A DNA stretch of 64,000 bases, from positions 1 through 64,000 of the IMG/VR virus record IMGVR_UViG_3300009514_000013. The stretch is one strand, 5' to 3'. The translations under genes and the position numbers were made by a program. Below are positions 3,485-46,167 of the stretch, in pieces. The DNA comes from a virus. A model generated the notes under the pieces. The model saw only the letters and a program-made list of their open reading frames with translations. It had not been told where the DNA came from and did not search any database. Each line of letters starts with the position of its first letter. Position 1 is the first letter of the stretch.

Positions 3485-3920
3485 TTGCTCCTTACAAGAA
3501 GGGGCTATTTGGAACACGGGAGATCAACAAGTTTCTGCTGTTGTTTGTGAAGGTCGAACAGGATTCTTTGTCCCATCTGCTCTGTATCGACGTCTTCGAA
3601 ATCCAGAGAACAGTCATGTCTACAAGTTACTACATGAAGAGTTGAAACTTGCTGACAAAGAGATCGTCCACCTGAAGAAAGCTCTCGAAGCATCATCAAA
3701 AGAATCCCAAAGTTACAAACGTATGGTTGATCAATATCGCCTGGACTGGACCCAATCAGAAGAAGCTTTGAGAGAAGCAAACAAGGACGTCAGATCTTTG
3801 GCATCGGTTTCATTCTTTGAACACCCAGTCTTGTGGTTCACACTGGGTGTGGTTGCTACGGTTGTGATTGTGAATACTCTTCAAGAAGATTCAGGTGCTA
3901 CTGTCGTGGTTCCGAAGTGA
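3426..3920 (+). CDS. exported coiled-coil protein with C-terminal TM, possible spanin-like
   Basis: signal-like N-terminus, coiled coil, C-terminal WFTLGVVATVVIV; overlaps previous gene as Rz/Rz1-type pairs do. Confidence 0.35.
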   Translation, partial: CQMLTLLITTTTLLTTQPVNCSLQEGAIWNTGDQQVSAVVCEGRTGFFVPSALYRRLRNPENSHVYKLLHEELKLADKEIVHLKKALEASSKESQSYKRMVDQYRLDWTQSEEALREANKDVRSLASVSFFEHPVLWFTLGVVATVVIVNTLQEDSGATVVVPK

Positions 3921-4109
3921 TGGTTTCAACTCATTTCTAAGCGAGTCCTCAAGCGAGTCCTCAAGCGAGGACCTAAGCGAGGAGCCAAGCGAGGGCCAAA
4001 GTGAGGTCTCAAGCGAGGAGCCAAGCGAGGAGCCAAGCGAGGAGCCAAGCGAGTCCTCAAGCGAGAACTCAAGCGAGGACCAAAGTGACTTCATTTCAAT
4101 CTTTTTCAT
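3891..4109 (-). CDS. SLxx tetrapeptide-repeat microprotein 1 (about 13 x 12-bp units)
   Basis: MKKIEMK-(SLxx)n-ELK; ATG overlaps TGA of upstream gene (TGATG). Confidence 0.7.
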   Translation of the reverse strand: MKKIEMKSLWSSLEFSLEDSLGSSLGSSLGSSLETSLWPSLGSSLRSSLEDSLEDSLRNELKPSLRNHDSST

Positions 4110-4594
4110 CAATCCAATCCTTTCCAAAACATGATTGGCAGTTCAACCAAATGAACACCAGCTACATCTCTTGCGTATTCCTCGACACCGATCAAGAAAT
4201 CTTGAAAGACATCTAGCGTTGGAGAACCGAGAAGAGCTTCACACCCATCAACTGACCAATGAAGAAACAATGGTTGACCCTCCCACTTGAGAACAGACCA
4301 GATGTCATCTCCCCAGTTGTATGGCCATTCTCTTTCTTCTACCTTCACCTCTTTGTTCTGATCTTTGAGAGAACGATCATATGGAACATACGGACCATCA
4401 TCTCTACCCCAGAACAGTTGTGGTCCCATAGCAGCCCACGTCTTGATCGGTTGAGCGTTTGTCAAGAAAGCTTTGAGAGTCACAGGTTGCAGCATTGTGT
4501 AGAGGGTACCTCTGAGAACAAGAGGTAGAGTTGGATCCCCTAATGGATGCTCCCAGGATGGGAAAGGTTGTCTATGAAGATTGTTGAAGTTCAT
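4109..4594 (-). CDS. hypothetical protein
   Basis: 161-aa ORF tiling the leftward operon. Confidence 0.6.
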   Translation of the reverse strand: MNFNNLHRQPFPSWEHPLGDPTLPLVLRGTLYTMLQPVTLKAFLTNAQPIKTWAAMGPQLFWGRDDGPYVPYDRSLKDQNKEVKVEEREWPYNWGDDIWSVLKWEGQPLFLHWSVDGCEALLGSPTLDVFQDFLIGVEEYARDVAGVHLVELPIMFWKGLD

Positions 4595-4799
4595 CTTCTA
4601 TCCGTCTCAAAGACCAAAGCGAGTCCTCAAGCGAGAACTCAAGCGAGTCCTCAAGCGAGAACTCAAGCGAGGAGCCAAGCGAGGACCTAAGCGAGGAGCC
4701 AAGCGAGGACCAAAGCGAGGAGCCAAGCGAGGACCAAAGCGAGGAGCCAAGCGAGGACCTAAGCGAGGAGTCAATATGTTTCATTTCAAATTCCTTCAT
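4572..4799 (-). CDS. SLxx repeat microprotein 2 (about 13 units)
   Basis: MKEFEMK...(SLxx)n...DEL; starts 1 nt after the RuvC stop. Confidence 0.7.
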   Translation of the reverse strand: MKEFEMKHIDSSLRSSLGSSLWSSLGSSLWSSLGSSLRSSLGSSLEFSLEDSLEFSLEDSLWSLRRIEDELQQSS

Positions 4800-4800
4800 T

Positions 4801-5331
4801 TCATCCACCAACTTTCTTCAAAACTTCTTTCTCTTGTTTGGTACCTTCTTCGAATCCAGCAAGTACCTTCGCCATCTCCATCAAGCCGTATGCATCAGCT
4901 TCATCATCAGTCTTCAACACCAGATTGTATTTGGAAGCGATCGTAGAGACCATCTGAGTTTTGTTTGCATTACCTTTACCAGTGACAAACTTCTTCAGGG
5001 TTGTAGGAGCAACCTCAACCAAGTGATCTGTCATTGGCAACAGACACTTCCGCAGTATTCCACCGAGTTCTCCTAGGTACACTCCAGCTGTATTGGCTCC
5101 ATATGCGTAACCTTCAATCACAATTACTTTCGGACGAATCTCTTGGATGACTTTAAGAGCATTCAAGACCAAATCATCGATACGTCTCATCCGTGCTTCA
5201 ACAGGAGCTTTCTTCCCAGGTGATTTGCTTTTGAACACGTGGACGTCTGTGAACCACTCCCTTTTTCGCAGTACTGATCTCGCTAGTGCAAAGCTCGTAA
5301 GTGATGGATCAATTCCAATAACACACTTCAT
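4801..5331 (-). CDS. ruvC: Holliday junction resolvase, RuvC-like
   Basis: IGIDPS, VIVIEG, KKFVTGKGNANK, DEADAYG catalytic motifs. Confidence 0.9.
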   Translation of the reverse strand: MKCVIGIDPSLTSFALARSVLRKREWFTDVHVFKSKSPGKKAPVEARMRRIDDLVLNALKVIQEIRPKVIVIEGYAYGANTAGVYLGELGGILRKCLLPMTDHLVEVAPTTLKKFVTGKGNANKTQMVSTIASKYNLVLKTDDEADAYGLMEMAKVLAGFEEGTKQEKEVLKKVGG

Positions 5332-5723
5332 TGTAGGTCCTCTGGATCAGGCTCCGAATGTACTGGGCATTGATTGACAGCAACACATAGCGGACATGCT
5401 ACCTTTTGATGTGCATGACATCGGCAAGCACACGAGTCGTTAAGATGTTCTAACCAGTATTCGAAGGCTTCTCTTCTACCTTCGTTCTTCACTTCTTCCA
5501 TTAGACTCACCAAGACTCTTCGATACAGATCGAGATCTGGACTCCTTTCGAAAGTGAAACCTCGAATAAACTTTTTCTTGTCTGATAGAAGTTCTTCTTC
5601 GAACTCATCGAGAACTTCTTTAATGAGCTTCTCATGATCAGGAAGTTCCTCCCATGGATCTTTGCGGCCTGTCTGGATGAGATCCTCATAGGCTTTCTTC
5701 AATATTTTCTTCAAGTTCGTCAT
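5328..5723 (-). CDS. hypothetical protein with C-terminal Cys/His cluster
   Basis: CACRCH..CPLC..CPVH; overlaps neighbours. Confidence 0.6.
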   Translation of the reverse strand: MTNLKKILKKAYEDLIQTGRKDPWEELPDHEKLIKEVLDEFEEELLSDKKKFIRGFTFERSPDLDLYRRVLVSLMEEVKNEGRREAFEYWLEHLNDSCACRCHAHQKVACPLCVAVNQCPVHSEPDPEDLQ

Positions 5724-5952
5724 TTGAACGCCATCTCAAGGAGCCAAGCGAGTCCTCAAGCGAGGAGCCAAGCGAGGAGCCAAGCGAGTACCTAAGCGAG
5801 TCCTCAAGCGAGGACCTAAGCGAGGACCAAAGCGAGTCCTCAAGCGAGTCCTCAAGCGAGTCCTCAAGCGAGAACTCAAGCGAGGACCAAAGCGAGTCCT
5901 CAAGCGAGAACTCAAGCGAGGACCAAAGTGACTTCATTTCAACCTTCTTCAT
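5686..5952 (-). CDS. SLxx repeat microprotein 3 (about 16 units)
   Basis: MKKVEMK-(SLxx)n. Confidence 0.7.
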   Translation of the reverse strand: MKKVEMKSLWSSLEFSLEDSLWSSLEFSLEDSLEDSLEDSLWSSLRSSLEDSLRYSLGSSLGSSLEDSLGSLRWRSNDELEENIEESL

Positions 5953-6577
5953 CAGAAATATCCGTTCCTTCAAACTCGATATCGAACGACAACACATCGT
6001 CGAAATCATCAACTTCAACTGTCTTGAGAATACGCCTCAATAGTTCTCTTTTTGCTCGTTGATACAACTGTTTGTTCTCAAGCCTTACTGTGCATCGAAG
6101 AGGCATTACAAACGTCTCTTCTTCAGGTTCCTTCATCTCTTTTCCGCAACCTTTGCAAGTTGCTCGGAACCCGTTGAATGCTAGACATGATGAGCACTGC
6201 CCTTCTGCAATTCGAAACCTCGTCTTGCGGATGCTTACCTTCTTGTCTGTAAACGAATCAGAGTGCTCATGGGTGAAGAACTCGTCATGTAGATCATTTC
6301 CAAGATCAACACCATCAGGCCACCAGTTTTGTTGTGTTTCTCGCCGTTCAGCTTCAATTCCTTTGTTCGTTTTTGTTACCAGTTTGAAAGCAGGAGTCAT
6401 CTGAGGAGCAAAGCCATCAAACAGAACCAACATCGAATGAGCAAAACCAGCCAGTTTGGCTTGATATGTCACTGCTTCTTTCCGTTCGACCCAAAAGTTG
6501 ATGAGTGACCAAATTGTTTGGAAGAGCTTTTCTCGCATCTCTTCTTGGTTCATTTCTCGATTTACAGGTTTCTTCAT
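5939..6577 (-). CDS. hypothetical protein with zinc ribbon
   Basis: CSSC...CKGC. Confidence 0.6.
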   Translation of the reverse strand: MKKPVNREMNQEEMREKLFQTIWSLINFWVERKEAVTYQAKLAGFAHSMLVLFDGFAPQMTPAFKLVTKTNKGIEAERRETQQNWWPDGVDLGNDLHDEFFTHEHSDSFTDKKVSIRKTRFRIAEGQCSSCLAFNGFRATCKGCGKEMKEPEEETFVMPLRCTVRLENKQLYQRAKRELLRRILKTVEVDDFDDVLSFDIEFEGTDISDEEG

Positions 6578-7416
6578 GAGTGTACTCCTACAACAATCAA
6601 CTCTTTCAGTTTTCGTTTTCGACCTTCCGATCGGCAGCTGATTGATCGATTCATGTCTACTTCGACGATCTTGAAATCTTCAAAAGTATTTCGAGTCCAT
6701 TCAGCATCGCTGCTAGACAGCATCACGTGAACACCTTTGTCATGTAGATCTTTATAAAGACCAGCCAATCGTTCATGATCATCCATGGTGAATCGGTTTC
6801 TGGTATACGAAGTGAACGAGGATGTCTTCGACACAGGGATGTAGGGTGGATCGAAATAGACAAAGTCTCCAGGAAGACAACTTTCACAAATTGTTTCAAA
6901 GTCTAATCTGAGAATCGTCGCTGTCTTTCTGAGTGTCTTGGCAACAGCTCTCAAGTTCTCCTCATCTAGGATCTTTGGGTTCTTGAACTTTCCATATGGG
7001 ACATTGAATTCACCCGATCGGTTCAAACGAAACAGGCCGTTGTAGCATGTCTTGTTTAGGTAGATCGTGCGAGCAGCTGCTTCTGTTGCTGTTAGCTCGA
7101 TTGGTTGCTGTTGTCGAAGTTCTAGGAAGAAATTCTTCTCTCGTTTCTGATGTTCCGACTGAAAAACTTCAAGGATTTTAATAACCCCATCACAGTCTGA
7201 AGCTAAAGAGTGATAGGTATTGATCAATTCTGAATTGAGATCACTGAGACTTGCTCCCAAGTTCAATCGAGAGTTTCTAGCTAGTGAGAAGTACAGTGCT
7301 CCACCACCAAGGAATGGTTCGTAGTACCTACCAAAGGTTTTGGGGATGTACTCCATCAAGTTGGGAAGAAGCCGTTTCTTTCCACCGGCGTATTTCAGAA
7401 ACGGTTTAGGAATCAC
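6574..7416 (-). CDS. dam: DNA adenine methyltransferase, Dam/D12 class
   Basis: KYAGGK, EPFLGGGA, NGLFRLN..GEFNVPYG, DPPY. Confidence 0.92.
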   Translation of the reverse strand: MIPKPFLKYAGGKKRLLPNLMEYIPKTFGRYYEPFLGGGALYFSLARNSRLNLGASLSDLNSELINTYHSLASDCDGVIKILEVFQSEHQKREKNFFLELRQQQPIELTATEAAARTIYLNKTCYNGLFRLNRSGEFNVPYGKFKNPKILDEENLRAVAKTLRKTATILRLDFETICESCLPGDFVYFDPPYIPVSKTSSFTSYTRNRFTMDDHERLAGLYKDLHDKGVHVMLSSSDAEWTRNTFEDFKIVEVDMNRSISCRSEGRKRKLKELIVVGVHS

Positions 7417-7733
7417 TGTTTCAACTCCTCTCTAAGCGAGGACCAAAGCGAGGACCTAAGCGAGTCCTCAAGCGAGTACCTAAGCGAGTCCTCAAGCGAG
7501 GTCTCAAGCGAGGACCTAAGCGAGGAGTAAAGCGAGGAGCCAAGCGAGTCCTCAAGCGAGGAGCCAAGCGAGAACCAAAGCGAGGACCAAAGCGAGAACC
7601 TAAACGAGTACCTAAGCGAGTCCTCAAGCGAGTCCTCAAGCGAGAACTCAAGCGAGTCCTCAAGCGAGGAGCCAAGCGAGGACCTAAGCGAGGTCTCAAG
7701 CGATTTCAATTTGATTTTCTCATCCATGAACAT
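7413..7733 (-). CDS. SLxx repeat microprotein 4 (about 23 units), first gene of leftward operon
   Basis: (SLxx)n-ELKQ; stop overlaps Dam start. Confidence 0.7.
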   Translation of the reverse strand: MFMDEKIKLKSLETSLRSSLGSSLEDSLEFSLEDSLEDSLRYSFRFSLWSSLWFSLGSSLEDSLGSSLYSSLRSSLETSLEDSLRYSLEDSLRSSLWSSLREELKQ

Positions 7734-7748
7734 GGTGTATCACATATA

Positions 7749-7778
7749 TTGACTAGTGTCATTAGGTTCTTTTAGAGT
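7749..7778 (+). promoter_or_regulatory. sigma70-type promoter TTGACT-N18-TAGAGT, probably leaderless transcript
   Basis: in the divergent intergenic gap; ATG 8 nt after the -10 box, no SD. Confidence 0.55.
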
Positions 7779-7786
7779 CTTAAGTT

Positions 7787-8032
7787 ATGAAACCAAATCC
7801 AAAGCTTGATCAGAAAATGATGGCCAATGGATACGTGTCTGTGCACGAAGCTTCGAAGAGAACAGGCATTTCCAAACCACAGATCTACGATGGGATCAAC
7901 ACCGGTAGTATCGAGTCTGTAATGGTTGTCAACCGCAAGTATTTAGAAATCGAAAGCTTTCTTGAGTTTGCAGGAGACGGCGGAAGAGTTCTTTGGGAAC
8001 GATACGAATCTGAAGAAACACAAAGCTCATAG
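7787..8032 (+). CDS. excisionase-like HTH DNA-binding protein
   Basis: VSVHEASKRTGISKPQIYDGIN HTH pattern. Confidence 0.65.
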   Translation: MKPNPKLDQKMMANGYVSVHEASKRTGISKPQIYDGINTGSIESVMVVNRKYLEIESFLEFAGDGGRVLWERYESEETQSS

Positions 8033-8050
8033 AGCACGAGAGGAAGATCC

Positions 8051-12238: not shown

Positions 12239-12489
12239 TTAATGAAGTCGAGGTGGTGTGCAACCACATGCAACAAGAGAGTGAATATCATTCCATCGTG
12301 GAAATGGCGCAAGAAGGAGTCCTACAAGGGATGGAGATGCGGGGTATTGTTGATGAGATCGAATCTCATCTTAAACGTCGCATGTTCCCAAATGAAGTTC
12401 TCATTTTGGGTGATGAGATGGACAAAGCAGAACGTTTGATTGAACGAGATGAGCAAGACTACAGGGACATGGTGCGATGGACGATCTGA
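12235..12489 (+). CDS. hypothetical protein
   Basis: AAAGGTG RBS; overlaps upstream stop. Confidence 0.5.
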   Translation: MINEVEVVCNHMQQESEYHSIVEMAQEGVLQGMEMRGIVDEIESHLKRRMFPNEVLILGDEMDKAERLIERDEQDYRDMVRWTI

Positions 12490-12704
12490 AGGAAATGAAG
12501 CCACTTAGGTTCTCGCTTGGCTCCTCGCTTAGGTCCTCGCTTTGGTCCTCGCTTGGCTCCTCGCTTTGGTCCTCGCTTAGGTCCTCGCTTGAGGACTCGC
12601 TTAGGTACTCGCTTGGCTCCTCGCTTGGCTCCTCGCTTGAGGACTCGCTTGGGTACTCGCTTTGGTCCTCGCTTTGGTTCTCGCTTAGAGATGAGTTGGA
12701 TTAA
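12477..12704 (+). CDS. SLxx repeat microprotein 5 (about 16 units)
   Basis: KEMK-PLRF-(SLxx)n-ELD; end overlaps primase start. Confidence 0.7.
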   Translation: MDDLKEMKPLRFSLGSSLRSSLWSSLGSSLWSSLRSSLEDSLRYSLGSSLGSSLEDSLGYSLWSSLWFSLRDELD

Positions 12705-16989: not shown

Positions 16990-17172
16990 ATGAGATTGGG
17001 AAAGTTCAAAACTCAAAGTGGTAAGCAGCAGTGGTTCCAGTTCATGGAGCTCGAGGAGCCGATCTTTCTTCAAAGAGAGATGGAAGAGCCGTTGAGGAAT
17101 GTTGTTCTATCCTTTTTGAGTTTGTTGGCACTGGTCGCTTGTGTTGTGGCTGCTATGGTTTCGGTGTGGTGA
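16990..17172 (+). CDS. small membrane protein
   Basis: C-terminal TM; TTGACC-N18-CACCCT at 16950-16979 upstream. Confidence 0.45.
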   Translation: MRLGKFKTQSGKQQWFQFMELEEPIFLQREMEEPLRNVVLSFLSLLALVACVVAAMVSVW

Positions 17173-17351
17173 TGAAGAAAGTTGAAATGAAACCTCTTAG
17201 GTCCTCGCTTTACTACTCGCTTTGGTTCTCGCTTGGCTCCTCGCTTTGGTTCTCGCTTTACTCCTCGCTTGAGGACTCGCTTGAGACCTCGCTTAGGTCC
17301 TCGCTTGGCTCCTCGCTTTGGTTCTCGCTTAGAAATGAGTTGAAACAATGA
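17172..17351 (+). CDS. SLxx repeat microprotein 6 (about 12 units)
   Basis: MKKVEMK-PLRS-(SLxx)n-ELKQ; TGATG and ATGA overlaps at both ends. Confidence 0.72.
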   Translation: MKKVEMKPLRSSLYYSLWFSLGSSLWFSLYSSLEDSLETSLRSSLGSSLWFSLRNELKQ

Positions 17352-20919: not shown

Positions 20920-22008
20920 ATGAGTAAGGTTGCCTTCGTTGCCGATGTTCATCTTGGCAACCATCAACGGTACGGTGGAGCTATCGAACTTGGGATGAAC
21001 CGTCGTTGTCGTGAAGTTCTTGAAACTCTGAAAGTAGCTGTAGCTGAAGCTGATGAGTGCGAATCTTTCGGAGTACTTGGTGATCTCTTTGATGTTACTA
21101 AGCCAATTCCACAGATGGTGAAAGCTGTTCAGGACATCCTAGAACCATCACCATCTCCATTCGTCATGATGGGAAATCATGATCAAGTCTCTTCAAGATC
21201 TGGAGATCATGCTCTAGGTCCTCTGGAGCCTGTCTCGGAAGTTATCGAAACGCCTAACCTCATCCACCTAGATGACTGTGACCTGGTTGTTTTACCTTTC
21301 CGGCCAGGTGTCGCCGATGATTGGGTTCCAGAGGACCTAGATTCCTTGTTTTCAAACAGGAGAATTCGTCCAGGTTCTGTTCTCTGTTTGCACCTAGGGA
21401 TCAAAGATTCTGAAACACCTAGCTATCTGACCGGTTCTCATGACTGCATCGACGTTGATCATGTAGCTGAGCTGATGCAGCGATATGACATCATCGCGAC
21501 AGTTGCGGGTAACTGGCATGAGTTGAAGAGTTGGAAGCGTGGTAAAAGTCAGATTCTTCAGATAGGCACTCTTGCTCCAACCGGCTGGGACAATCCGGGC
21601 CTTGATGATTACGGCCATATGGCTATCTGGGATTCGAAGACGATGACGTTTGATGTTCTCGAGATTCCAGGTCCACGCTTCTTGAAGATACGAGATCGAG
21701 AAGAGTTGAAAGCATTACCTCCTGGAGATGAATACGAGATCTACCTTGAGTGGACTGTATCAGATCCGAATGACTTGGTGAGTGCAAACCAAGAGATTGA
21801 GGAGATGATCAGTAAAGGTCGTATCGTCGCTGGTGGTGCATTCCTAGACAAGAAAGAGCAAGAGAAGAAAGCGAGAGTGTCAGCCAAAGCAGCTGCATCA
21901 AGTGAGACTTTGGAAGATGCACTATCGGCTTACATCAACACCATGGAGCTGGATGAACGAGTGACAACAGATCGGCTGATTGGTCTCACCAAGAGGTACT
22001 TGGGATGA
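20920..22008 (+). CDS. SbcD/Mre11-like nuclease
   Basis: ADVHLG, GDLFD, GNHD, GNWH; paired with SbcC-like gene. Confidence 0.88.
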   Translation: MSKVAFVADVHLGNHQRYGGAIELGMNRRCREVLETLKVAVAEADECESFGVLGDLFDVTKPIPQMVKAVQDILEPSPSPFVMMGNHDQVSSRSGDHALGPLEPVSEVIETPNLIHLDDCDLVVLPFRPGVADDWVPEDLDSLFSNRRIRPGSVLCLHLGIKDSETPSYLTGSHDCIDVDHVAELMQRYDIIATVAGNWHELKSWKRGKSQILQIGTLAPTGWDNPGLDDYGHMAIWDSKTMTFDVLEIPGPRFLKIRDREELKALPPGDEYEIYLEWTVSDPNDLVSANQEIEEMISKGRIVAGGAFLDKKEQEKKARVSAKAAASSETLEDALSAYINTMELDERVTTDRLIGLTKRYLG

Positions 22009-22232
22009 ATCAAATTCGCTTTTTGAAGGGCTATTCGCTTAGGGACTCGCTTAACATTTCGTTTATTTGGTCGGTTGACTCTCCACTGAGGTTCTCGCCA
22101 GATGATTCATTTTTAGGTTACTTGCACTGGTCTTTGAGTGACTATCTTGGTGGTCAAATTGCTAATTCCGTGAAAGATGTGTTGAAACAATGGCTGAAAT
22201 CTCAGACGACATCCTTCGAAAATTCGAAATAG
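22005..22232 (+). CDS. degenerate SLxx-like microprotein
   Basis: YSLRDSLNISF..SPLRFSPDDS..WSLSD; retains TCGCTTAGGGACTCGCTT. Confidence 0.55.
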   Translation: MNQIRFLKGYSLRDSLNISFIWSVDSPLRFSPDDSFLGYLHWSLSDYLGGQIANSVKDVLKQWLKSQTTSFENSK

Positions 22233-29530: not shown

Positions 29531-29917
29531 ATGTATAGACAAGGCGATGTGTTCATTTTTCCAGTGAAGGATCCTGGTTCTGAGAATGTTGGTCCAGAAG
29601 TGAAGCGAGACAACGGTCGAGTGGTGCTTCAATACGGTGAGGTGACTGGTCATGCTCATGCAATTCATGAATCACCTGTTCATTTGTTTGATTTCAGCGA
29701 TGACTTTCTGAAATCGAATGAGTCATTTCGAAAGAACGTTGAAGATGTCATTGGAGCGCCATTGGATCCTCAAATCGATCGGTTGTTGACGGTTGGTGAA
29801 ATGTCGGCACTAGTTCACGAAGAGCACGATACAATTCCGATTCCTCCAGGAACGTACATTGCAAGGAGGCAGCATGAGTACAGCGATCGTGAGCGTGAAC
29901 GATACGTTGAGGATTAA
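29531..29917 (+). CDS. conserved RQGDV-motif protein, habitual neighbour of DUF6745 genes
   Basis: YRQGDV, GEVTGHAH, LVHEEHDTI, PPGTY..RRQHEY; AGGAG RBS. Confidence 0.75.
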   Translation: MYRQGDVFIFPVKDPGSENVGPEVKRDNGRVVLQYGEVTGHAHAIHESPVHLFDFSDDFLKSNESFRKNVEDVIGAPLDPQIDRLLTVGEMSALVHEEHDTIPIPPGTYIARRQHEYSDRERERYVED

Positions 29918-30077
29918 GAGGGATCTTTATAGGTACACACCGAATTCACTACGTTGGGATCTCATGCATGGTGTCGCTCACCCTTTGGGAGATGCATTAC
30001 GCTTGTCTTTGATTCTCAAGGTTGAGGCAGAACTAGAAAGGTATAAAAATGGAGAAAATCAAAGAACTAACACCTGA
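29907..30077 (+). CDS. degenerate SLxx-like microprotein (start uncertain)
   Basis: DLYR..NSLRWDLMH..HPLGDALRLSL..ELE 4-residue Leu periodicity. Confidence 0.4.
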   Translation: MRIKRDLYRYTPNSLRWDLMHGVAHPLGDALRLSLILKVEAELERYKNGENQRTNT

Positions 30078-31002
30078 ACAGAAAGCCGAGATGGTTGTCT
30101 GGCGAAAGCGATGGTTTGACATTGGGTCATGTTGCGATCCAGCTGACAAGCCAAAAGCAGAAGCAGCCATCTCGAAGATGTACGAGCTCATCGGTCAGAC
30201 TGCACCAAAGTTCATTTGGTGCAAGAGTCCACTTGATGCAAATCGAGAGATTCACCGCTACTCAAAAGGGTTACCGGCTGATCATTCTCTCGAAGGTGAA
30301 GACATCGAAATCCAGGGGGCATACCAATGGGGGCAGATGGACTCCTACTGGATTTCTTTCTACCTCTTCTGTCGGGATGTAGTTGGTGTTGAGTACTCTG
30401 AGAAAGATTCAGAGACGTTGGACCTATGGTCTGAGATTGCTCAGTCTTGTGGTTGGTGGTGGCCTTATGAAGGTGTGTGTTTTGTGTCTGACCGCCCTCT
30501 TGCGGTTCATTGGGAAGACGATCGGGATCCTCCTAGGATTCACAATCCGAATGGACCAGCTGTGGAGTACCGTGATGGATTCAAGGTCTACGCTATTCGG
30601 GACATCCGGGTAGAGCCAAGGATTATCGAGAATCCAGAAACCATCACGTTCGAGGAGATACTCAGAGAGCGAAACGCTGAGATCCGTAGAGTCCTACTCA
30701 GGCAATACGGTGAAGAGCGATTTGTGAATGATTCGCGAGTGAAGATGTTTGCCCAAGATGAAGAAGGTATCCTCTATTCGATTGATGGTGAGGACATCGA
30801 CTTCATGTTGCTCAAGGTCATCAATTCAACGCCTGAACCAGATGGTAGCCTTAAGCCGTATTTTCTCACGACGTTCACTAGTACTGAGACGACGAGAGAG
30901 AATACTGGTATCGACTACCACGGACCATGGACACCTCACGCAGCTAGAGCGATCAGCTTCAAGATTCATCCAGACAAGTTCAATTGTTTGATGGAGACCT
31001 AG
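30049..31002 (+). CDS. DUF6745-domain protein
   Basis: IKELTPEQ, WCKSP, WGQMDSYW, SCGWWWPYEGVCFVSDRP, IHNPNGPAVEYRDG, ERNAEIRRV, VINSTPEPDGS..YFL. Confidence 0.8.
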   Translation: MEKIKELTPEQKAEMVVWRKRWFDIGSCCDPADKPKAEAAISKMYELIGQTAPKFIWCKSPLDANREIHRYSKGLPADHSLEGEDIEIQGAYQWGQMDSYWISFYLFCRDVVGVEYSEKDSETLDLWSEIAQSCGWWWPYEGVCFVSDRPLAVHWEDDRDPPRIHNPNGPAVEYRDGFKVYAIRDIRVEPRIIENPETITFEEILRERNAEIRRVLLRQYGEERFVNDSRVKMFAQDEEGILYSIDGEDIDFMLLKVINSTPEPDGSLKPYFLTTFTSTETTRENTGIDYHGPWTPHAARAISFKIHPDKFNCLMET

Positions 31003-31003: not shown

Positions 31004-31189
31004 ATGAAGAAAGTTGAAATGAAACCTCTTAGCTCCTCGCTTAGGTCCTCGTTTAGCTCCTCGCTTTGGTCCTCGCTTGGCTCCTCGCTTTGGTCCTCGC
31101 TTGGCTCCTCGCTTAGGTCCTCGCTTGGCTCCTCGCTTGGCTCCTCGCTTAGGTCCTCGCTTGAGGAAGAGTTGAGGTCTCGACGTTAA
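31004..31189 (+). CDS. SLxx repeat microprotein 7 (about 12 units)
   Basis: MKKVEMK-PLSS-(SLxx)n-EEL; starts 1 nt after the DUF6745 stop. Confidence 0.72.
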   Translation: MKKVEMKPLSSSLRSSFSSSLWSSLGSSLWSSLGSSLRSSLGSSLGSSLRSSLEEELRSRR

Positions 31190-31860: not shown

Positions 31861-32595
31861 ATGGCAAAAGCACGAATATCCGAAAAGAAATACAACCTCC
31901 TCCTAGAAGCATTTCGCGAAGTCCCTGGAAGGACATGGAAGGCATCTGAGATCGCCGGAGTGCAGCCTAAAACCGCACAAAGAGCTTGGGAACGCGGTTG
32001 GGATGATCCGATATGGGCTCGAACTCCGATCAGAGAAATCGTCGAGAAAGAACAGATTGCAGCTAGAGCAGAGCTTCAACGCCAAGGTGAAAAAGAGAAA
32101 GCCAAAGACACGGCTGATCGCGAGAAAGCTAAACTCGACATTGTCCAACAACGAACCAAAGAAGCAGCCGGTATCAGGAACTCCACCACCAACGTTCTCG
32201 CCATCATTCAGAACCAAGGGAAATTCCTACAGAGTACCCAACGCATCAACGATCATCTCCTGGTCAAGTTTGAAGAAGATGTCAAAGCAAACAAGATCTC
32301 GGTGAAGGAGTACACTCAGATTATCAACAGCCTGGCCAATGCTGTGACGAGAGCTGTTCAAGGTCTGAAGACCGGAATGGAAGCAGCAAGACTCTACCTT
32401 GGAGAACCTGAGCAGATCGTTGGTTTCGTCCAACCTCAGGTGAACTATCAACTCGACTACAACAAAGCAGAAGCTACATTCGGAGCTGAGTTCATCAAGA
32501 AGGTCATGAGAGACTTGGCGGAAGAGAGGATGACTGCAGAGGTCGATCGCTTCTTCGAATGGGAACATGAGCAAAGGAACATGGAGTTGAACTGA
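31861..32595 (+). CDS. probable terminase small subunit
   Basis: N-terminal HTH (KASEIAGVQPKTAQRAW), helical body, upstream of TerL ATPase gene. Confidence 0.5.
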   Translation: MAKARISEKKYNLLLEAFREVPGRTWKASEIAGVQPKTAQRAWERGWDDPIWARTPIREIVEKEQIAARAELQRQGEKEKAKDTADREKAKLDIVQQRTKEAAGIRNSTTNVLAIIQNQGKFLQSTQRINDHLLVKFEEDVKANKISVKEYTQIINSLANAVTRAVQGLKTGMEAARLYLGEPEQIVGFVQPQVNYQLDYNKAEATFGAEFIKKVMRDLAEERMTAEVDRFFEWEHEQRNMELN

Positions 32596-32771
32596 TGAAG
32601 CAGTTGGAGATGAAAAATGTCAGGCGTGATCTTGATAAGACTCTTGGTTCCTCCATTGTCATGAGACTCGATGCGTTCATTACGTCATCTATTTTTCATC
32701 CACTCATGGATTCGCTTCATCAGTCACTTGTAGGCTCAGTACGTCGTGAAGAGAGAAGAGAGTTGAAGTGA
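32595..32771 (+). CDS. degenerate SLxx-like microprotein (58 aa, below ORF-track cutoff)
   Basis: my translation MKQLEMKNVRRDLDKTLGSSIVMRLDAFITSSIFHPLMDSLHQSLVGSVRREERRELK shares MKxxEMK start and ELK end. Confidence 0.6.
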   Translation: MKQLEMKNVRRDLDKTLGSSIVMRLDAFITSSIFHPLMDSLHQSLVGSVRREERRELK

Positions 32772-32956
32772 TGGAGCCGCTTATGAATGAAGTGAATTCA
32801 AAGCTCAAGCATCCGCTCATGGATCGACTCTATACATTGCTTTCATTTCAACCTCATATTCTACACCCGCTCGATGTTTCTCTTTGGGGATCACTAGGAA
32901 GATCATTCCTAGTAGGAGTTCGTACATGTTTGAACGAAAAGACGAGTTCGAAATGA
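32768..32956 (+). CDS. degenerate SLxx-like microprotein
   Basis: HPLMDRLY..HPLDVSLWGSLGRSF; coupled. Confidence 0.5.
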   Translation: MMEPLMNEVNSKLKHPLMDRLYTLLSFQPHILHPLDVSLWGSLGRSFLVGVRTCLNEKTSSK

Positions 32957-33096
32957 AATTCAGGTCTTTGAATGAGACCTTGGCAGAGTCGCTTGAGTAC
33001 TCCATCGAGGGCGCTCTCAGATTTTCACTTGAGAAACCGCTTAGGGATTCTCTTATCCGGTCGCTGGTGATGCATCTTTCCATGAAGAGTGAATAA
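32953..33096 (+). CDS. degenerate SLxx-like microprotein
   Basis: MKFRSLNETLAESLEYSIEGALRFSLEKPLRDSLIRSL. Confidence 0.55.
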   Translation: MKFRSLNETLAESLEYSIEGALRFSLEKPLRDSLIRSLVMHLSMKSE

Positions 33097-33944: not shown

Positions 33945-34316
33945 ATGTCGTCAATCCGATTGGATATTTATTCCTTTTTGGAAGAGCTACCTAAACTAGC
34001 AATGATGGATACAGTACTGGATCTGCCATGTAGTGCTCGGCTTGACCTCTATGAGGGTCTTGATACTCCATTAAGGGAGTCGCTCAACTTTTCAATGCAA
34101 AAGACGATTGAGTTCGAGGTTGGGTGAATGGCGAAATTGAAGCTATGTGGTACGTTCTCCCTACGGGATCATCTCCAAATTGAGCTTGAAGATGTCGTTG
34201 AAAAGAGCTTGTCTGAACCAGTACACGATATCATCATCGGTGAAATCTATGACATCCACAAATCGCTTAATACCTCTCTGTGGCGACACACTCACGTAAC
34301 CTTATATGAGCGTTAA
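33945..34316 (+). CDS. two small ORFs (33945-34127 and 34128-34316), highly degenerate SLxx-like
   Basis: GLDTPLRESLNFSM; FSLRDHLQIELED..KSLNTSLW. Confidence 0.4.
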
Positions 34317-34327
34317 ATCGCTTTAAC
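34312..34327. promoter_or_regulatory. 16-bp palindromic site GTTAAA-TCGC-TTTAAC
   Basis: contains upstream stop; TerL ATG 4 nt downstream. Confidence 0.65.
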
Positions 34328-41340: not shown

Positions 41341-41388
41341 TCGCGACAAAACACTGTCACGATTCTGTCGCGATTCTGTCACGATTCT
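41339..41388. repeat. three tandem 11-bp repeats CTGTCRCGATT plus one inverted copy
   Basis: copies at 41354, 41365, 41376; inverted AATCGCGACA at 41339. Confidence 0.8.
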
Positions 41389-41423
41389 AGTCAATCGGCT
41401 GGGTTAAGAAAGGAGAGGGGTGA

Positions 41424-41916: not shown

Positions 41917-41932
41917 GTTAAAGTGCTTTAAC
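41917..41932. promoter_or_regulatory. 16-bp palindromic site GTTAAA-GTGC-TTTAAC
   Basis: in a divergent intergenic gap. Confidence 0.6.
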
Positions 41933-42005: not shown

Positions 42006-42212
42006 ATGAAGAAATTGAAATCGCTTAGGTACTCGCTTGGCTCCTCGCTTTACTACTCGCTTTACTCCTCGCTTGAGGACTCGCTTAGGCACTCGCCTAG
42101 GTACTCGCCTTGGTCCTCGTTTAGCTCCTCGCTTTACTCCCCGCTTTGGTTCTCGCTTTGGTCCTCGCTTAGGTTCTCGCTTTGGTCCCAAATGTGTTTA
42201 ACAAAGGAATAA
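42006..42212 (+). CDS. SLxx repeat microprotein 8 (about 14 units, several variant)
   Basis: MKKLK-(SLxx)n; TTGACC-N18-CATGCT at 41960-41989 upstream. Confidence 0.68.
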   Translation: MKKLKSLRYSLGSSLYYSLYSSLEDSLRHSPRYSPWSSFSSSLYSPLWFSLWSSLRFSLWSQMCLTKE

Positions 42213-42216
42213 ACCA

Positions 42217-43122: not shown

Positions 43123-43645
43123 CAGAAGTTGGTTCCAGACCTACACTGCAAAAGTATTCAGGCCCAAGGAACCCGAATCAGAACTTGTGTGTATCGAAGA
43201 CATCGCCCATCACCTATCGAATATTTGCCGCTACAACGGAGCATGCCGATCGTTCTACTCAGTAGCTCAGCACTCAGTTCTCGTCTCAAGGATTGTTCCG
43301 AGAGAAGATGCACTTTGGGGATTGCTTCATGATGCAGGTGAAGCTTACATAGGTGACATGGTCCGGCCTCTGAAGATCCACATGCTGGAGTTCCAGAAAG
43401 TAGAAGAAGGAGTCATGAAAGCTGTGTGTGAACGCTTTGGACTCAATCCAAAGCAACCTGCATCGGTGACCAAAGCTGACATGACTATCCTTGCAACAGA
43501 AAAGAGAGATCTCTGTAGAGAAGCTCCGATTCCATGGGGTATTGAGCACATCGCTCCAATCACAACAACGATCAGTCCATGGCCACCGCAGAAAGCAAAA
43601 GAGATCTTTTTAGAAGAGTTCCGGAATCTATTTGAGGGAGAGTGA
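43112..43645 (+). CDS. HD-domain phosphohydrolase (5'-deoxynucleotidase-like)
   Basis: IEDIAHHLS..CRYNG, YSVAQHS, LLHDAGEAY..D. Confidence 0.87.
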   Translation: MTSDRSWFQTYTAKVFRPKEPESELVCIEDIAHHLSNICRYNGACRSFYSVAQHSVLVSRIVPREDALWGLLHDAGEAYIGDMVRPLKIHMLEFQKVEEGVMKAVCERFGLNPKQPASVTKADMTILATEKRDLCREAPIPWGIEHIAPITTTISPWPPQKAKEIFLEEFRNLFEGE

Positions 43646-44070
43646 TGACATTGGTAATGGGAAGTCGAACAACACCTGGTCTGCTTGAAGAAGTGAAAGA
43701 GAAGAAGTCTGAACGGAAGTGGGAGAAGCCATCCGGCGAACAAGCTGTTCAGTATGATGAGGGAAAACTTCGGTATGATCTGATTTCTCGATTTGCTCTC
43801 CGTGAAGTTGTCAGAGGAGCTACGTTTGGAGCAAACAGCAAGTATGACGACTGGAATTTCCTTAAAGGAAAAGGGTTGTCAGTCTCAGCTCAGTTGGCTT
43901 CTATCGAACGCCATTTCAACAAAATCATGATGGGAAATGACATCGATGAAGAGTCTAAGGTTCACCATCTTGGGCTGATTGCGCTGCGGGCGATGATGGC
44001 TTACGAGACTCTGATGTTTCACCCAGAACAAGATGATCGCTTCTACAAGAACAACAAGCCGAAGAAATGA
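43642..44070 (+). CDS. DUF5664 / dATP-dGTP diphosphohydrolase-like protein
   Basis: YDEGKLRYDLI, FGA..KY..WN, D.DEESKVHHL. Confidence 0.78.
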   Translation: MMTLVMGSRTTPGLLEEVKEKKSERKWEKPSGEQAVQYDEGKLRYDLISRFALREVVRGATFGANSKYDDWNFLKGKGLSVSAQLASIERHFNKIMMGNDIDEESKVHHLGLIALRAMMAYETLMFHPEQDDRFYKNNKPKK

Positions 44071-44104
44071 ACGCCATCCAACAACTGCTCTTTAGTCAAG
44101 TAGA

Positions 44105-45970
44105 ATGTCGAATGCACAAGAACTATTTGAGAATCTCATCCTCACCGAAACTGATCTCTCTGGATTAGCCGCAACCATCGCTGTCCTCGCTTCTCCTAGC
44201 GATCGAGGTTCTGCACTTACTCGCATCTATATTGGTGTCGACTACTGCAACAAGCTCCTCAATCAACTTCTCCAATTGACAGATCAAGAGCTTCCATTCC
44301 GAGACAAGTTCTTGAAACTTAGTGATGTGTACCAACGGCGTTTGAGTGCTCTTGAAGAGATCGGAAATCAAAGTCGTATACCTACGGTTGGAGCTATGAC
44401 TACCGTTTCTTGGGTTGTTGAACTGGTTGATGAACCACTCCGTGAGATTGTTGATGGGTTGAAGACACTGGCAGCGATTTCATCAATCGAGAACTTCTTG
44501 CGTTGGTGTCTGCTCAGAGTGTGATAAGTTCGAAATTGAAATGACCAAGTGCGTTGGCTGCGAATGGCCATCAGGTTGTAAAGCTCAATTCAACCCACCC
44601 AAAATCATGATCCGGAATCGTTATCGGTACTTGTGCAAAGCTCATGTTCAGATAGCCGAAAGAGATCCGATCTCAACAGCAGAAACTTTCTGGGCGCTCG
44701 ACAATTGGAAACCGAAAGATATGGTTTGTCCGCTCTGTGATGGTCCGTTGATGACTACTGGCGTCTGTGTGAGTTGTGACGAACTCCTAGTCAGACGGGA
44801 AATAGCTGGTCTTTTTGACAAGTTGGTGACTGAAGAGGTTCCTGATGAGGACGACGAATCCTCAGAAGCTGCCTAGGTTAAAGCGATTTAACACATGGAG
44901 AACACCGACGAGATTCGTATCCATCTCACCACCCTGGTGCAGAACGCTGCGAGAGCCTGCAAAATAGCCGGTCTCGAGCATGAATTCAGAAAGCTGTCCC
45001 AAGTCCAGGTAGATTTCAAAACCCGCCTAGCGTGCGTTTTCAAAGCTGTCAGGCTGGTGGAGACTTCCATCTTGGTGAATTGGGGTAAATCGCTCATGAC
45101 CCCAGGTTTTTCTGGCCTAGCCGCGGAATCTATTGCTATCGTTCGATTAGGGGCTATCACTGCTCTCACGGAGGCTGATGTAGATGTCAAAAGGAAATGG
45201 ATCCAAGAACTGGTCAACCGTTCCGACTGTAAAGTTCTCTCCTACTCGAAAGAAGGAACTTGAGAAGCTATTCGAAGAACGTGTCGAACAGTACCTGGGT
45301 GATCCGACGATCAAAGAATTGGTGCAACGATACAGAAAGAAGATCGATCTACAAGAAGAGATCTTCGCATCTCCAATTGATGTTCATGAAGCTTTCGACG
45401 CGGTAGTTGTTGCCCACTGCTTCGCAGATCACGAACCAGTTGACCTAGCGAAGAAGGTTGAAAGTAACCTAGTTATGGTTCGTGCGATGTGTCGCCACTA
45501 CAAGAAACTTGCTGACATCTGGAAAGAGAACTGTGATGCTCTTTGCGAATTGGTGAAAAATGACGACGTTTGAAGAGAAGTACCCAAATGTGAAACCAGC
45601 TCCTCTTCTTTCGGATAGCGATCGAAATAGGTGGATCGTAGAAAAAGAACCACAGAAGGTAGAGACAGAAGATCTCGTTGTAGAGGAGAAAAAGGCTGAA
45701 CCTGTTGTTGATCGATGGGCGAAGATTGGCAAACTCTCTCTCAATCTCGACGGGATCGGTGGTACAGTTCCAGAACTTCTCTTGCTCCTCATTGCAGAAG
45801 TTAGAGAGTTGGTGATGCAACCAAAACAAGAAACAGTTGCTTCAGTGGTTCAATCCAGACCGGATTTGCAGAATGCTTTGAAAGACAGCATCGGAGAGAT
45901 TCAAAAGATGATGGGTGCTCTCAACCGAGGTAAGCCAGGAACTCCATTGAAGAAGGTGAATGGAGAATGA
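44105..45970 (+). CDS. run of five hypothetical ORFs (44105-44524, 44541-44876, 44895-45263, about 45184-45573, 45560-45970)
   Basis: tile the strand with short gaps or overlaps; 44541 has CxxC pairs. Confidence 0.5.
44877..44892. promoter_or_regulatory. 16-bp palindromic site GTTAAA-GCGA-TTTAAC
   Basis: fills the gap between a TAG and the ATG at 44895. Confidence 0.65.
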
Positions 45971-46167
45971 AGAAGGTTGAAATGAAACCTCTTGGCTCCT
46001 CGCTTTGGTTCTCGCTTGAGGACTCGCTTGAGGACTCGCTTGAGTTCTCGCTTGAGGACTCGCTTGAGGACTCGCTTAAGGACTCGCTTTGGTCCTCGCT
46101 TGGCTCCTCGCTTTACTCCTCGCTTGGCTCCTCGCTTTGGTTCTCGCTTAGAGAGGAGTTGAAGTAG
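45967..46167 (+). CDS. SLxx repeat microprotein 9 (about 14 units)
   Basis: MKKVEMK-PLGS-(SLxx)n-ELK; GGAG RBS, ATGA overlap. Confidence 0.72.
   Translation: MKKVEMKPLGSSLWFSLEDSLEDSLEFSLEDSLEDSLKDSLWSSLGSSLYSSLGSSLWFSLREELK

What the first reader, a model, noticed from the sequence alone, without database searches (positions are those of the whole stretch)
3891..46167. Genome-wide family of micro-genes assembled combinatorially from 12-bp cassettes (TCGCTT-NNNNNC)
Seen: nine loci (3891, 4572, 5686, 7413 on minus; 12477, 17172, 31004, 42006, 45967 on plus) each hold about 12-23 tandem 12-bp units, roughly 130 in total. The TCG CTT (Ser-Leu) half is almost invariant even at synonymous positions. 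The other half comes from a small shared vocabulary: GGCTCC GS, AGGTCC RS, TGGTCC WS, GAGGAC ED, GAGTTC EF, AGGTAC RY, TGGTTC WF, TACTCC YS, GAGACC ET. The order differs at every locus. Each array has an MKKxEMK-like start and usually an EL(K) end, follows the local transcription direction and is start/stop-coupled to its neighbours. Inference: simple slippage would give homogeneous arrays, so a shared vocabulary in scrambled order suggests cassette exchange between loci through the constant CTCGCTT core. This would produce a diversified repertoire of periodic amphipathic peptides, i.e. a diversity-generating system needing no reverse transcriptase.
Basis: partly seen in the sequence, partly recalled or inferred. 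Interest (0 to 1): 0.92.

Follow-up and report, generated by a model that had tools for sequence, protein, structure and literature searches.

The report
Dispersed repeat micro-genes detached from DUF6745
An uncultured phage carries nine tiny genes built from near-identical 12-base units, and they look like free-standing copies of a fast-changing helical repeat that related phages build into one unstudied protein (DUF6745), so one protein core may be able to take many exchangeable partners.

Summary
Nine loci hold 130 in-register 12-nt units, and 120 of them carry the exact constant hexamer. Each of the 20 variable dipeptides has a single spelling, in codons that are minor for this phage.

They are real small genes:
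- The starts and ends are conserved.
- They are tightly coupled to neighbouring genes.
- Older, degenerate paralogues keep the Ser-Leu period with different codons.

The peptides match the internal four-residue tract of DUF6745 proteins: 116 of the 150 best hits carry the DUF6745 core. This phage's own DUF6745 gene (30049-31002) lacks the tract, and micro-gene G starts one base after its stop codon.

In 80 other viral loci, an internal tract and detached arrays almost exclude each other. A complex model supports binding: score 0.73, best control 0.01.

Blocks of up to 7 units are shared between loci beyond shuffles. This fits duplication, slippage and recombination under diversifying selection. 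A dedicated cassette-exchange machine is not shown.

The scan had already noted this architecture on other DNA. New here are the genome-wide dispersal and the DNA-level uniformity. The function is unknown.

The parts
3891..4109 (-). Micro-gene A, 72 aa, 14 core units. The last gene of the minus-strand block.
   Evidence: Its ATG overlaps the stop of ORF 4109-4594 by 1 nt.
4572..4799 (-). Micro-gene B, 75 aa, 13 core units.
   Evidence: It starts 1 nt after the stop of ORF 4801-5331, and its end overlaps the start of ORF 4109-4594 by 23 nt.
5686..5952 (-). Micro-gene C, 88 aa, 16 core units. The most acidic, with net charge -14.
   Evidence: It overlaps both neighbours (5939-6577 and 5328-5723). 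It shares 4 head units with A and 7 units with E.
7413..7733 (-). Micro-gene D, 106 aa, 23 core units. The first gene of the minus-strand block.
   Evidence: Its stop overlaps the GTG of ORF 6574-7416 by 4 nt. It was the query and 81/88.
12477..12704 (+). Micro-gene E, 75 aa, 15 core units. It lies between a small ORF and the primase gene.
   Evidence: Its start overlaps ORF 12235-12489. Its end overlaps the likely primase ATG at 12691.
17172..17351 (+). Micro-gene F, 59 aa, 11 core units. It lies downstream of the family B DNA polymerase gene.
   Evidence: TGATG overlap upstream and ATGA overlap with ORF 17348-17947.
31004..31189 (+). Micro-gene G, 61 aa, 11 core units. It lies directly after the DUF6745 gene. 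This is the peptide that was docked.
   Evidence: One base lies between the DUF6745 stop codon (31000-31002) and its ATG.
42006..42212 (+). Micro-gene H, 68 aa, 14 core units. It is the most decayed copy: 4 of its 14 constant halves are altered and it has no EL end.
   Evidence: No plus-strand ORF of 40 aa or more lies in the 350 nt upstream. The next ORF starts 4 nt after its stop.
45967..46167 (+). Micro-gene I, 66 aa, 13 core units.
   Evidence: ATGA overlap with ORF 45560-45970 and a 1-nt overlap with ORF 46167-46382.
30049..31002 (+). DUF6745 core gene, 317 aa, lacking the internal tetrad tract.
   Evidence: Pfam PF20530 at 1.3e-42 and phrog_31813. The alignment places a roughly 30-residue non-repeat linker where homologues carry the tract. 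AF2 model: pLDDT 92.
29531..29917 (+). Small partner gene, 128 aa, with a QGDV motif near its start. It lies upstream of DUF6745.
   Evidence: phrog_27831 at 1.1e-9. The same gene order is seen in L066 and L087.
32595..32771 (+). Degenerate paralogue. It keeps the MKxLEMK-type start and the ELK end, and its period is kept with varied codons.
   Evidence: phmmer E 6.5e-4. Codons.
32926..33096 (+). Degenerate paralogue.
   Evidence: phmmer E 1.3e-4..
34128..34316 (+). Weak degenerate paralogue just upstream of the terminase gene.
   Evidence: phmmer E 1.8e-3..
22005..22232 (+). Weak degenerate paralogue. It holds the one stray two-unit match.
   Evidence: match at 22035. phmmer E 3.8e-3..

Best explanation
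The nine arrays are paralogous small protein-coding genes of 59 to 106 aa. Each encodes a mostly helical peptide of four-residue repeats. Two positions of each repeat are constant (Ser-Leu) and two are hypervariable.

The peptides are free-standing versions of the hypervariable tract that most DUF6745 proteins carry internally, between an SP motif and a WWGQ motif. This phage's DUF6745 has lost that tract. The peptides therefore most likely bind the core in trans, with the leucine stripe on the core and the variable pairs exposed. This step is inferred from a model and is not shown. One core would then be offered nine or more alternative surfaces, ranging in net charge from -14 to +5 and encoded in different operons.

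The arrays evolve by four processes:
- duplication and loss of 12-nt units;
- base changes at first and second codon positions, kept by diversifying selection;
- duplication of whole genes to new sites;
- recombination between copies.

What the complex recognises is unknown.
For: Evidence that the arrays are coding:
- Conservation begins at the ATG and ends near the stop.
- The genes are tightly coupled to their neighbours.
- Five weaker paralogues keep the Ser-Leu period with different Ser and Leu codons.
- RNA folding is no better than shuffles, with z of -1.06 and -0.97.

Evidence that the units are young and under diversifying pressure:
- 20 of 20 dipeptide types have one spelling each.
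- Unit position 6 is C in 125 of 130 units.
- The codons used are minor in 45 long ORFs of the phage: TCG 17%, TCC 10%, CTT 21%, GGC 11%, AGG 12%.

Evidence for the link to DUF6745:
- Searching with D against 1.84 billion representatives gave 309 hits at E<=1e-3. Of the 150 best, 116 carry the DUF6745 core by an HMM built from A3.
- Among the 120 listed homologues of the window's DUF6745, 57 carry a tract of 20 or more residues, of the xxSL, xxSV, xxQL or xxNL type.
- The alignment shows where the tract sits and that it is absent here.

Evidence that tract and detached arrays exclude each other, from 80 viral loci:
- 35 have an internal tract, and 2 of these also have arrays outside the gene.
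- 45 have no tract, and 22 of these have arrays outside the gene (Fisher p=1.9e-5).
- Dereplicated to 62 clusters the four counts are 2, 30, 14 and 16, p=3.5e-4.
- The order partner gene, core gene, micro-genes is also seen in L066 and L087.

Evidence for binding: the complex model scored 0.73 in all three runs, against 0.01 for the best of 3 controls. That mark was reached by 58 of 80 solved complexes and 2 of 110 mismatched pairs. These counts hold only roughly, because my own alignment was used. The runs agree in at least 87% of contacts and the partner's pLDDT is at least 74. All 13 hydrophobic repeat positions of G (twelve Leu and Phe17) are among the contact residues.
Against: - Eight of the nine micro-genes lie 11 to 27 kb from the DUF6745 gene. 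In other phages the arrays are mostly within 1 kb of it.
- Only one peptide (G) was docked. A pass may only reflect the model's knowledge of the fused proteins, so it shows likeness rather than binding.
- In the AF2 model of a fused homologue the tract is two helices, but at pLDDT 41-55.
- 16 of 30 dereplicated tract-less clusters show no array in their flanks.
- Similar tracts also occur in other scaffolds. By eye, 15 of the 150 best hits are such proteins, so another partner is possible.
- There are no expression, proteomic or population data.
- The core has no recognisable fold or family that would suggest a function.
Confidence: 0.6

Rival explanations
1. One reading: a dedicated diversity-generating system. 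Cassettes are actively exchanged between the nine loci through the constant hexamer, without a reverse transcriptase, to produce a changing peptide repertoire within the phage population.
For: - Exact blocks are shared between loci: C/E 7 units, B/G 6, D/I 4, A/C 4. This is beyond shuffles.
- Gene C is a mosaic with an A-like head and an E-like tail.
- The variable half has no synonymous variants.
- The same constant hexamer and one of the same variable hexamers occur in the fused tract of a phage whose core is only 40% identical.
- No reverse transcriptase is present in the record.
Against: - Shared blocks are equally expected from gene duplication followed by local unit gain, loss and mutation.
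- No enzyme is linked to the arrays.
- Degenerate paralogues show that copies simply decay once they are no longer homogenised.
- Within-population variation could not be examined.
- Pairs of units shared between loci (k=2) are not in excess, p=0.35.
Confidence: 0.12
2. The micro-proteins act on their own or with another partner, not with DUF6745. They could be helical peptides that bind a host factor, or decoys for whatever recognises such tracts.
For: - Eight of the nine genes are far from DUF6745 and sit inside replication and recombination operons.
- Tracts of this kind occur in at least one other group of small scaffolds, and once as a 73-aa free protein.
- Net charge ranges widely, from -14 to +5.
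Against: - The core lacks exactly this tract, and micro-gene G starts one base after its stop codon.
- Internal tract and detached arrays exclude each other across loci.
- The complex model passed its controls.
Confidence: 0.2
3. The arrays are not translated. They act as DNA or RNA repeats, for example as protein-binding iterons or a structured RNA, and the open frames are a by-product of the repeat.
For: - A second forward frame and reverse-strand frames are also open across the arrays.
- The constant hexamer is conserved even at its wobble positions.
- A palindromic motif that contains the same hexamer recurs at gene junctions.
Against: - Only the SLxx frame has the conserved ATG leader and the stop coupled to neighbours.
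- The third forward frame is full of stops.
- Degenerate paralogues keep the residues but not the bases.
- RNA folding z-scores are ordinary.
- The peptides match protein tracts in 116 of 150 hits.
Confidence: 0.05
4. The unit order or number is an assembly artefact. Short-read assembly of nine loci that share repeats would be the cause.
For: - The record is a metagenome-derived contig.
- Loci share identical stretches of up to 84 nt.
- No reads were available.
Against: - Each array keeps frame, start, stop and coupling to unique flanks at nine places.
- Comparable arrays exist in many independent assemblies.
Confidence: 0.03

Closest known systems
DUF6745 proteins (Pfam PF20530; phrog_31813) with an internal tetrad-repeat tract
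   Same: They share the four-residue period, the constant polar plus hydrophobic pair, and the variable alphabet (G/R/W/E, then S/D/A). The tract is predicted to be helical. Some use the same Ser-Leu codons.
   Different: Here the repeat is not inside the protein. It is encoded as nine separate genes, and the core gene lacks it. No paper in the searched library holds 'DUF6745' or 'PF20530', so the family's function is unknown.
Detached repeat mini-gene clusters beside repeat-less DUF6745 in other uncultured phages
   Same: A repeat-less core, the small QGDV-type partner gene, and several coupled micro-genes of the same kind.
   Different: In those phages the micro-genes sit in tandem, mostly within 1 kb of the core gene, and their units are more diverged. 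Here 8 of 9 are scattered over 42 kb inside other operons, and the units are nearly identical at the DNA level.
Diversity-generating retroelements (for example the Bordetella phage variable tail protein; recalled)
   Same: A phage protein surface is varied at amino-acid-changing positions while neighbouring bases stay fixed.
   Different: There is no reverse transcriptase in the record and no template/variable repeat pair was identified. The variation sits in tandem 12-nt units at many loci, not in one variable region.
Four-residue, 12-bp repeats in the central helical region of Type I restriction specificity subunits (EcoR124I/II, recalled; Mycoplasma pneumoniae HsdS, PMC8836594, search listing only)
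   Same: 12-bp tandem units encode a helical four-residue repeat, and the copy number changes by slippage or unequal crossing-over and alters function.
   Different: Those repeats are few and uniform, and they act as a spacer within one protein. Here there are 11 to 23 units per gene with hypervariable pairs, as separate genes.
Silent-cassette antigenic variation by gene conversion (for example Neisseria pilin loci; recalled)
   Different: Here all copies look expressible, each with its own start and coupling. There is no single expression site, and no exchange has been shown.

Membership tests
DUF6745-type tetrad-repeat tract (module) | Four-residue period with a constant polar plus hydrophobic pair and a variable pair | tested here: met
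   130 units of xxSL; the constant half is exact in 120 of 130.
DUF6745-type tetrad-repeat tract (module) | Sequence similarity to the tracts of DUF6745 proteins | tested here: met
   116 of the 150 best hits of micro-protein D carry the DUF6745 core, and the match lies at roughly residues 60-250. Similarity between repeats is weaker proof of common descent than similarity between globular domains.
DUF6745 (PF20530) protein | The Pfam domain is present in the same polypeptide | tested here: not met
   The micro-proteins have no Pfam or PHROG family. They are not DUF6745 proteins themselves.
Split DUF6745 system (repeat-less core plus detached micro-genes) | A DUF6745 gene without an internal tract in the same genome | tested here: met
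   ORF 30049-31002: PF20530 at 1.3e-42, with no periodic tract.
Split DUF6745 system (repeat-less core plus detached micro-genes) | The small QGDV-type partner gene lies next to the core | tested here: met
   ORF 29531-29917, phrog_27831 at 1.1e-9. The same order is seen in L066 and L087.
Split DUF6745 system (repeat-less core plus detached micro-genes) | The micro-protein binds the core | tested here: inconclusive
   Model only: score 0.73 against 0.01 for the best of 3 controls; the mark was reached by 58 of 80 solved and 2 of 110 mismatched pairs; contacts agree in at least 87%; partner pLDDT at least 74. One of nine peptides was tried. No experiment.
Split DUF6745 system (repeat-less core plus detached micro-genes) | Micro-genes clustered beside the core gene | tested here: not met
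   Only G is adjacent. The other eight lie 11 to 27 kb away. In other loci the arrays are mostly within 1 kb.
Diversity-generating retroelement | A reverse transcriptase gene | tested here: not met
   PF00078 has 0 matches in the 84-kb record, which is estimated 90% complete. The control genomes gave hits.
Diversity-generating retroelement | A template repeat paired with a variable repeat, with adenine-specific changes | not tested
   I made no dedicated search for a template/variable pair.
Structured non-coding RNA | A fold more stable than shuffled sequence | tested here: not met
   z -1.06 for D and -0.97 for I. I made no Rfam search.

The most novel reading that the evidence does not exclude
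The phage runs a modular recognition system. One DUF6745 core, with its small partner, is loaded with any of nine or more interchangeable hypervariable helical peptides. These are encoded in different operons, so different versions of the complex would appear at different stages of infection. In this reading the peptides are kept diverse by a targeted, reverse-transcriptase-independent process that changes only a few defined bases of each 12-nt unit and moves blocks between loci. The same restriction of change to unit bases 1 and 5, with fixed wobble bases, is seen in the fused tracts of 35 other viral loci.
Probability: 0.15. Interest if true: 0.92.

Novelty: new variant of a known kind. Interest (0 to 1): 0.72.

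Why it matters
DUF6745 is a widespread phage and prophage family with no known function. I found no paper holding 'DUF6745' or 'PF20530' in the searched library.

Its repeat tract changes almost only at amino-acid-changing bases, which is the mark of a surface under strong pressure to vary.

This phage gives an unusually clean case for experiment:
- The tract is physically separated from the core.
- It is present in nine sharply different versions.
- It is written in near-identical DNA units, so recent changes are easy to read.

If the peptides do bind the core, this would be a way for a small virus to give one protein many exchangeable surfaces without a reverse transcriptase or an invertase. 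It would also give a direct handle (pull-downs, co-crystals, swapping peptides) on what DUF6745 recognises.

Tried and rejected
- Families for the micro-proteins: Pfam and PHROGs gave nothing significant. PADLOC gave nothing for the core, the partner or D.
- Word-indexed search of 5.8 billion proteins with D: one hit, P0001. It has no Pfam family itself, but it aligns to the N-terminal part of DUF6745 proteins and carries the tract.
- ESM Atlas: best feature score 0.89, which is a lead only; one structural neighbour row was a DUF6745 cluster.
- Close relatives of this phage:
  - blastn of 4 kb against the phage records found no match.
  - The DNA polymerase found one weak viral locus.
  - P0004 found one locus at 35% identity.
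  - The leader-plus-unit pattern had 0 matches in metagenome contigs.
  - The three-unit pattern matched 51 viral stretches, of which 4 (L012, L015, L017, L022) are fused DUF6745 tracts and the rest are unrelated simple repeats.
- Sequencing runs: none was listed, and no RNA holder was listed. No reads were laid, so population variation, expression and assembly could not be checked.
- Fold of the core: Foldseek against the PDB gave no match at E<=1e-3, and the wide VIA search gave a best Z of 4.2. The C-terminal half was barely tested by that list.
- Sequence search of solved structures: nothing for the partner, and only E 0.39 or worse for the core profile.
- tRNA scan: 0 genes, so a link between the fixed codons and phage tRNAs was dropped.
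- Structured RNA was rejected on z-scores.
- DGR was rejected for lack of a reverse transcriptase.
- Promoter and terminator scan of 3500-8200: fewer sites than in shuffles.
- Papers: searches for tetrapeptide repeats or 12-bp repeats in phages found 0, 1 and 1 papers. None concerns this family (listings only). Supplementary files were not consulted.

Full report
WHAT IS THERE

The window is the first 64 kb of an 84,362-base viral record, estimated 90% complete. The record is a tailed phage. It encodes:
- a family B DNA polymerase;
- a DnaB-type helicase;
- a primase;
- an SbcC-like protein;
- a terminase with an intein;
- a portal protein;
- a major head protein.

Tandem Repeats Finder reports period-12 arrays at nine places. 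The two-unit pattern occurs 107 times against 0.01 expected; 106 of these lie in the nine loci and one lies at 22035. In the whole record the three-unit pattern has 94 matches, all in the nine loci, and the reversed control has none.

Read in the Ser-Leu frame, each array is an ORF of 59 to 106 codons. Together the nine hold 130 in-register units, 11 to 23 per gene. The constant half is exact in 120 of them.

ARE THEY GENES?

Several things point to translation in the SLxx frame.
- Similarity between the copies begins at the ATG. Five of the nine share the same seven-residue start.
- Similarity ends a few codons after the last unit, at an xxEL motif present in 8 of 9.
- At the 5' side, seven of the nine start within 1 nt of, or overlapping, the upstream stop codon. 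D is the first gene of its block, and H follows about 350 nt without an ORF of 40 aa or more.
- At the 3' side, six overlap the next start codon.
- A second forward frame and the reverse strand are also open, but they lack such starts. The third forward frame is full of stops.
- A phmmer search of all stop-to-stop ORFs with the nine peptides found five further weak relatives: 32791-33096, 32571-32771, 34128-34316, 21957-22232 and 22489-22740, with E from 1.3e-4 to 7.7e-3. These keep the Ser-Leu period but spell it with many different codons. One of them keeps both the leader and the ELK end. That pattern is what selection on a protein gives.
- RNA folds of D and I are no more stable than shuffles.

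HOW THE ARRAYS VARY

The variable half has 20 types, and each dipeptide has exactly one spelling. Unit position 6, the wobble base of the second variable codon, is C in 125 of 130 units.

The constant half has ten variants. Four are a synonymous Ser codon and six change the residue.

The codons used are minor ones in 45 long ORFs of the phage: TCG 17% and TCC 10% of Ser, CTT 21% of Leu, GGC 11% of Gly, and AGG 12% of Arg. The uniform spelling is therefore shared recent descent of the units, not codon bias. The differences that have been kept are nearly all amino-acid changing.

Unit order is not random:
- Strings of four units shared between loci number 9, against 0.75 in shuffles.
- Strings of five number 5, against 0.07.
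- The longest shared string is 7 units; 500 shuffles gave at most 6.

The maximal exact blocks are C/E 7 units, B/G 6, D/I 4 and A/C 4. Gene C thus has a head like A and a tail like E. Pairs of units repeated within a locus are also in excess, 16 against 9.4, and higher-order periods of 24 to 48 nt appear. Both fit local duplication.

D and I also share 14 nt beyond their stop codons, so at least one copying event carried a little flank with it.

All of this fits unit gain and loss, point change, gene duplication and recombination between paralogues. None of it requires, or excludes, a dedicated exchange mechanism. No reverse transcriptase is present.

WHAT THEY ARE RELATED TO

Pfam, PHROGs and PADLOC have no family for the peptides.

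The word-indexed search found one protein, P0001. It has a 70-residue head followed by the same xxSL repeat. It is a DUF6745 protein (PF20530, 1.3e-42), and its head aligns with P0001.

One search scanned 121 proteins: the 120 listed homologues plus P0001. Of these, 58 carry a tetrad tract of 20 or more residues, which is 57 of the 120 homologues. The tract types are xxSL, xxSV, xxQL and xxNL, and the variable alphabet is the same as here. The tract sits between a conserved SP motif and a WWGQ motif. At that place the window's protein and its nearest relatives have only a short non-repeat linker.

Searched the other way, micro-protein D hit 309 proteins at E<=1e-3 among 1.84 billion representatives. 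The 150 best divide as follows; only the first count is by HMM, and I sorted the other 34 by eye:
- 116 carry the DUF6745 core, by an HMM built from nine tract-less sequences;
- 15 are other small proteins with a similar tract;
- 1 is a 73-residue free peptide;
- 18 are unrelated low-complexity proteins.

IS THE SPLIT ARRANGEMENT A PATTERN?

I fetched 80 viral loci with DUF6745 relatives and scored 12-nt periodic DNA inside and outside the gene.
- 35 have an internal tract, and only 2 of these also have arrays elsewhere in the flanks.
- 45 have no tract, and 22 of these have arrays outside the gene (Fisher p=1.9e-5).
- After merging genes at 80% identity or more into 62 clusters, the four counts are 2, 30, 14 and 16, p=3.5e-4.

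In L066 and L087 the order is small QGDV-type gene, tract-less DUF6745, then coupled micro-genes with their own conserved heads and tails. The window has the same core arrangement: partner gene 29531-29917 (phrog_27831), core gene, and micro-gene G with one base between the core's stop codon and its ATG.

What differs is dispersal. Elsewhere the arrays lie mostly within 1 kb of the core gene. Here eight of the nine lie 11 to 27 kb away, inside the early minus-strand block and the replication and later operons.

The closest viral relatives of the core (L062 and L063, 40% identity) have a short internal tract. It is written with the same Ser-Leu hexamer and one of the same variable hexamers.

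DO THEY FIT TOGETHER?

The core alone folds with high confidence, pLDDT 92 and pTM 0.83. It matches no solved fold: Foldseek gave nothing at E<=1e-3, and the wide search gave a best Z of 4.2.

In a fused homologue the tract is modelled as two long helices (residues 86-114 and 119-147), but at low confidence, pLDDT 41-55.

The complex job paired the core, with a 50-row alignment, with micro-protein G. The verdict was that the model supports binding.
- The score was 0.73 in all three runs, against 0.01 for the best of 3 controls.
- That mark was reached by 58 of 80 solved complexes and 2 of 110 mismatched pairs. The counts hold only roughly, because my own alignment was used.
- The runs agree in at least 87% of contacts, and the partner's pLDDT is at least 74.
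- All 13 hydrophobic repeat positions of G (twelve Leu and Phe17) are among the contact residues.
- The core residues involved (7-187) include the flanks of the missing tract.

This may partly be the model's memory of the fused proteins. It shows that the peptide can stand in for the tract. It does not show that it binds in a cell.

MECHANISM, WITH ITS STATUS

Shown:
- The nine arrays are a paralogous coding family.
- They are similar to DUF6745 tracts.
- The phage's own core lacks the tract.
- The split and fused forms exclude each other across loci.
- Variation is almost entirely amino-acid changing.

Inferred:
- The peptides dock on the core through the constant Ser-Leu face and present the variable pairs. 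This would give one core nine or more surfaces, with net charge from -14 to +5.
- Diversity arises by ordinary repeat dynamics under diversifying selection.

Unknown:
- the target and purpose of the complex;
- whether all nine peptides bind;
- why the genes are scattered.

COMPARISON AND NOVELTY

No paper in the searched library holds 'DUF6745' or 'PF20530'. The other literature searches gave nothing on this family.

The scan's own earlier notes describe the split DUF6745 arrangement in several other uncultured phages, so the architecture is not unique to this window. I confirmed it independently on my own set of loci.

This case adds two features. The micro-genes are dispersed through the genome in coupled positions, and the 12-nt units are so uniform that only amino-acid-changing differences are visible.

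I file it as a new variant of a catalogued but uncharacterised family. The bolder reading, a targeted RT-free diversification and timed swapping of surfaces, is kept as the novel case.

In 35 fused tracts elsewhere, change is concentrated at unit bases 1 and 5 while all wobble bases stay fixed. That keeps a targeted process on the table.

Noticed in passing
window 31185-31200, 34312-34327, 41917-41932, 44877-44892, 55557-55572: A 16-base palindrome (GTTAAA, four bases, TTTAAC) occurs 5 times against 0 expected. Four of the five copies contain the arrays' constant hexamer or its complement. Three copies lie next to micro-gene G, next to the degenerate paralogue at 34128-34316, or upstream of micro-gene H. 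It may be a shared regulatory or terminator site.
   Followed up: partly
window 7403-7416 and 46167-46180: Micro-genes D and I share 14 bases beyond their stop codons. As a result the downstream genes (the methyltransferase-like ORF 6574-7416 and ORF 46167-46382) begin with the same GTG and four following codons. This is a trace of a copying event that carried flank sequence.
   Followed up: partly
loci L062-L141 (35 with an internal tract): In the fused DUF6745 tracts of other phages, variation is concentrated at unit base 1 (major allele 0.3-0.5) and base 5 (0.5-0.6). All four wobble positions stay at about 0.85-0.97. This gives the recurring G/R/W and D/A/G/V alphabets.
   Followed up: partly
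proteins P0164, P0175, P0191, P0205, P0216, P0217, P0244, P0253, P0256, P0265-P0267 and others: Similar xxSL or xxSV tracts occur in about 15 of the 150 best hits that lack the DUF6745 core. These are proteins of 200-300 residues with other head and tail domains. P0236 is a free 73-residue peptide. The repeat module is not confined to DUF6745.
   Followed up: partly
window 12517-13701: The second open frame of array E runs in frame into the primase gene, so an ORF finder extends the primase by about 58 repeat codons from a TTG. The primase domains start after the array. The ATG at 12691 is the likelier start.
   Followed up: partly
window 34332-36317: The ORF with terminase large-subunit similarity carries an intein with a LAGLIDADG domain.
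   Followed up: no
window 24748-26010: One ORF combines a ParB-like N-terminal part with a DNA methyltransferase.
   Followed up: no
window 41354-41393: An 11-base unit is repeated 3.5 times in the gap after ORF 40315-41340, about 600 bases upstream of micro-gene H.
   Followed up: no
ARAGORN on the whole window reported no tRNA or tmRNA gene.
   Followed up: no
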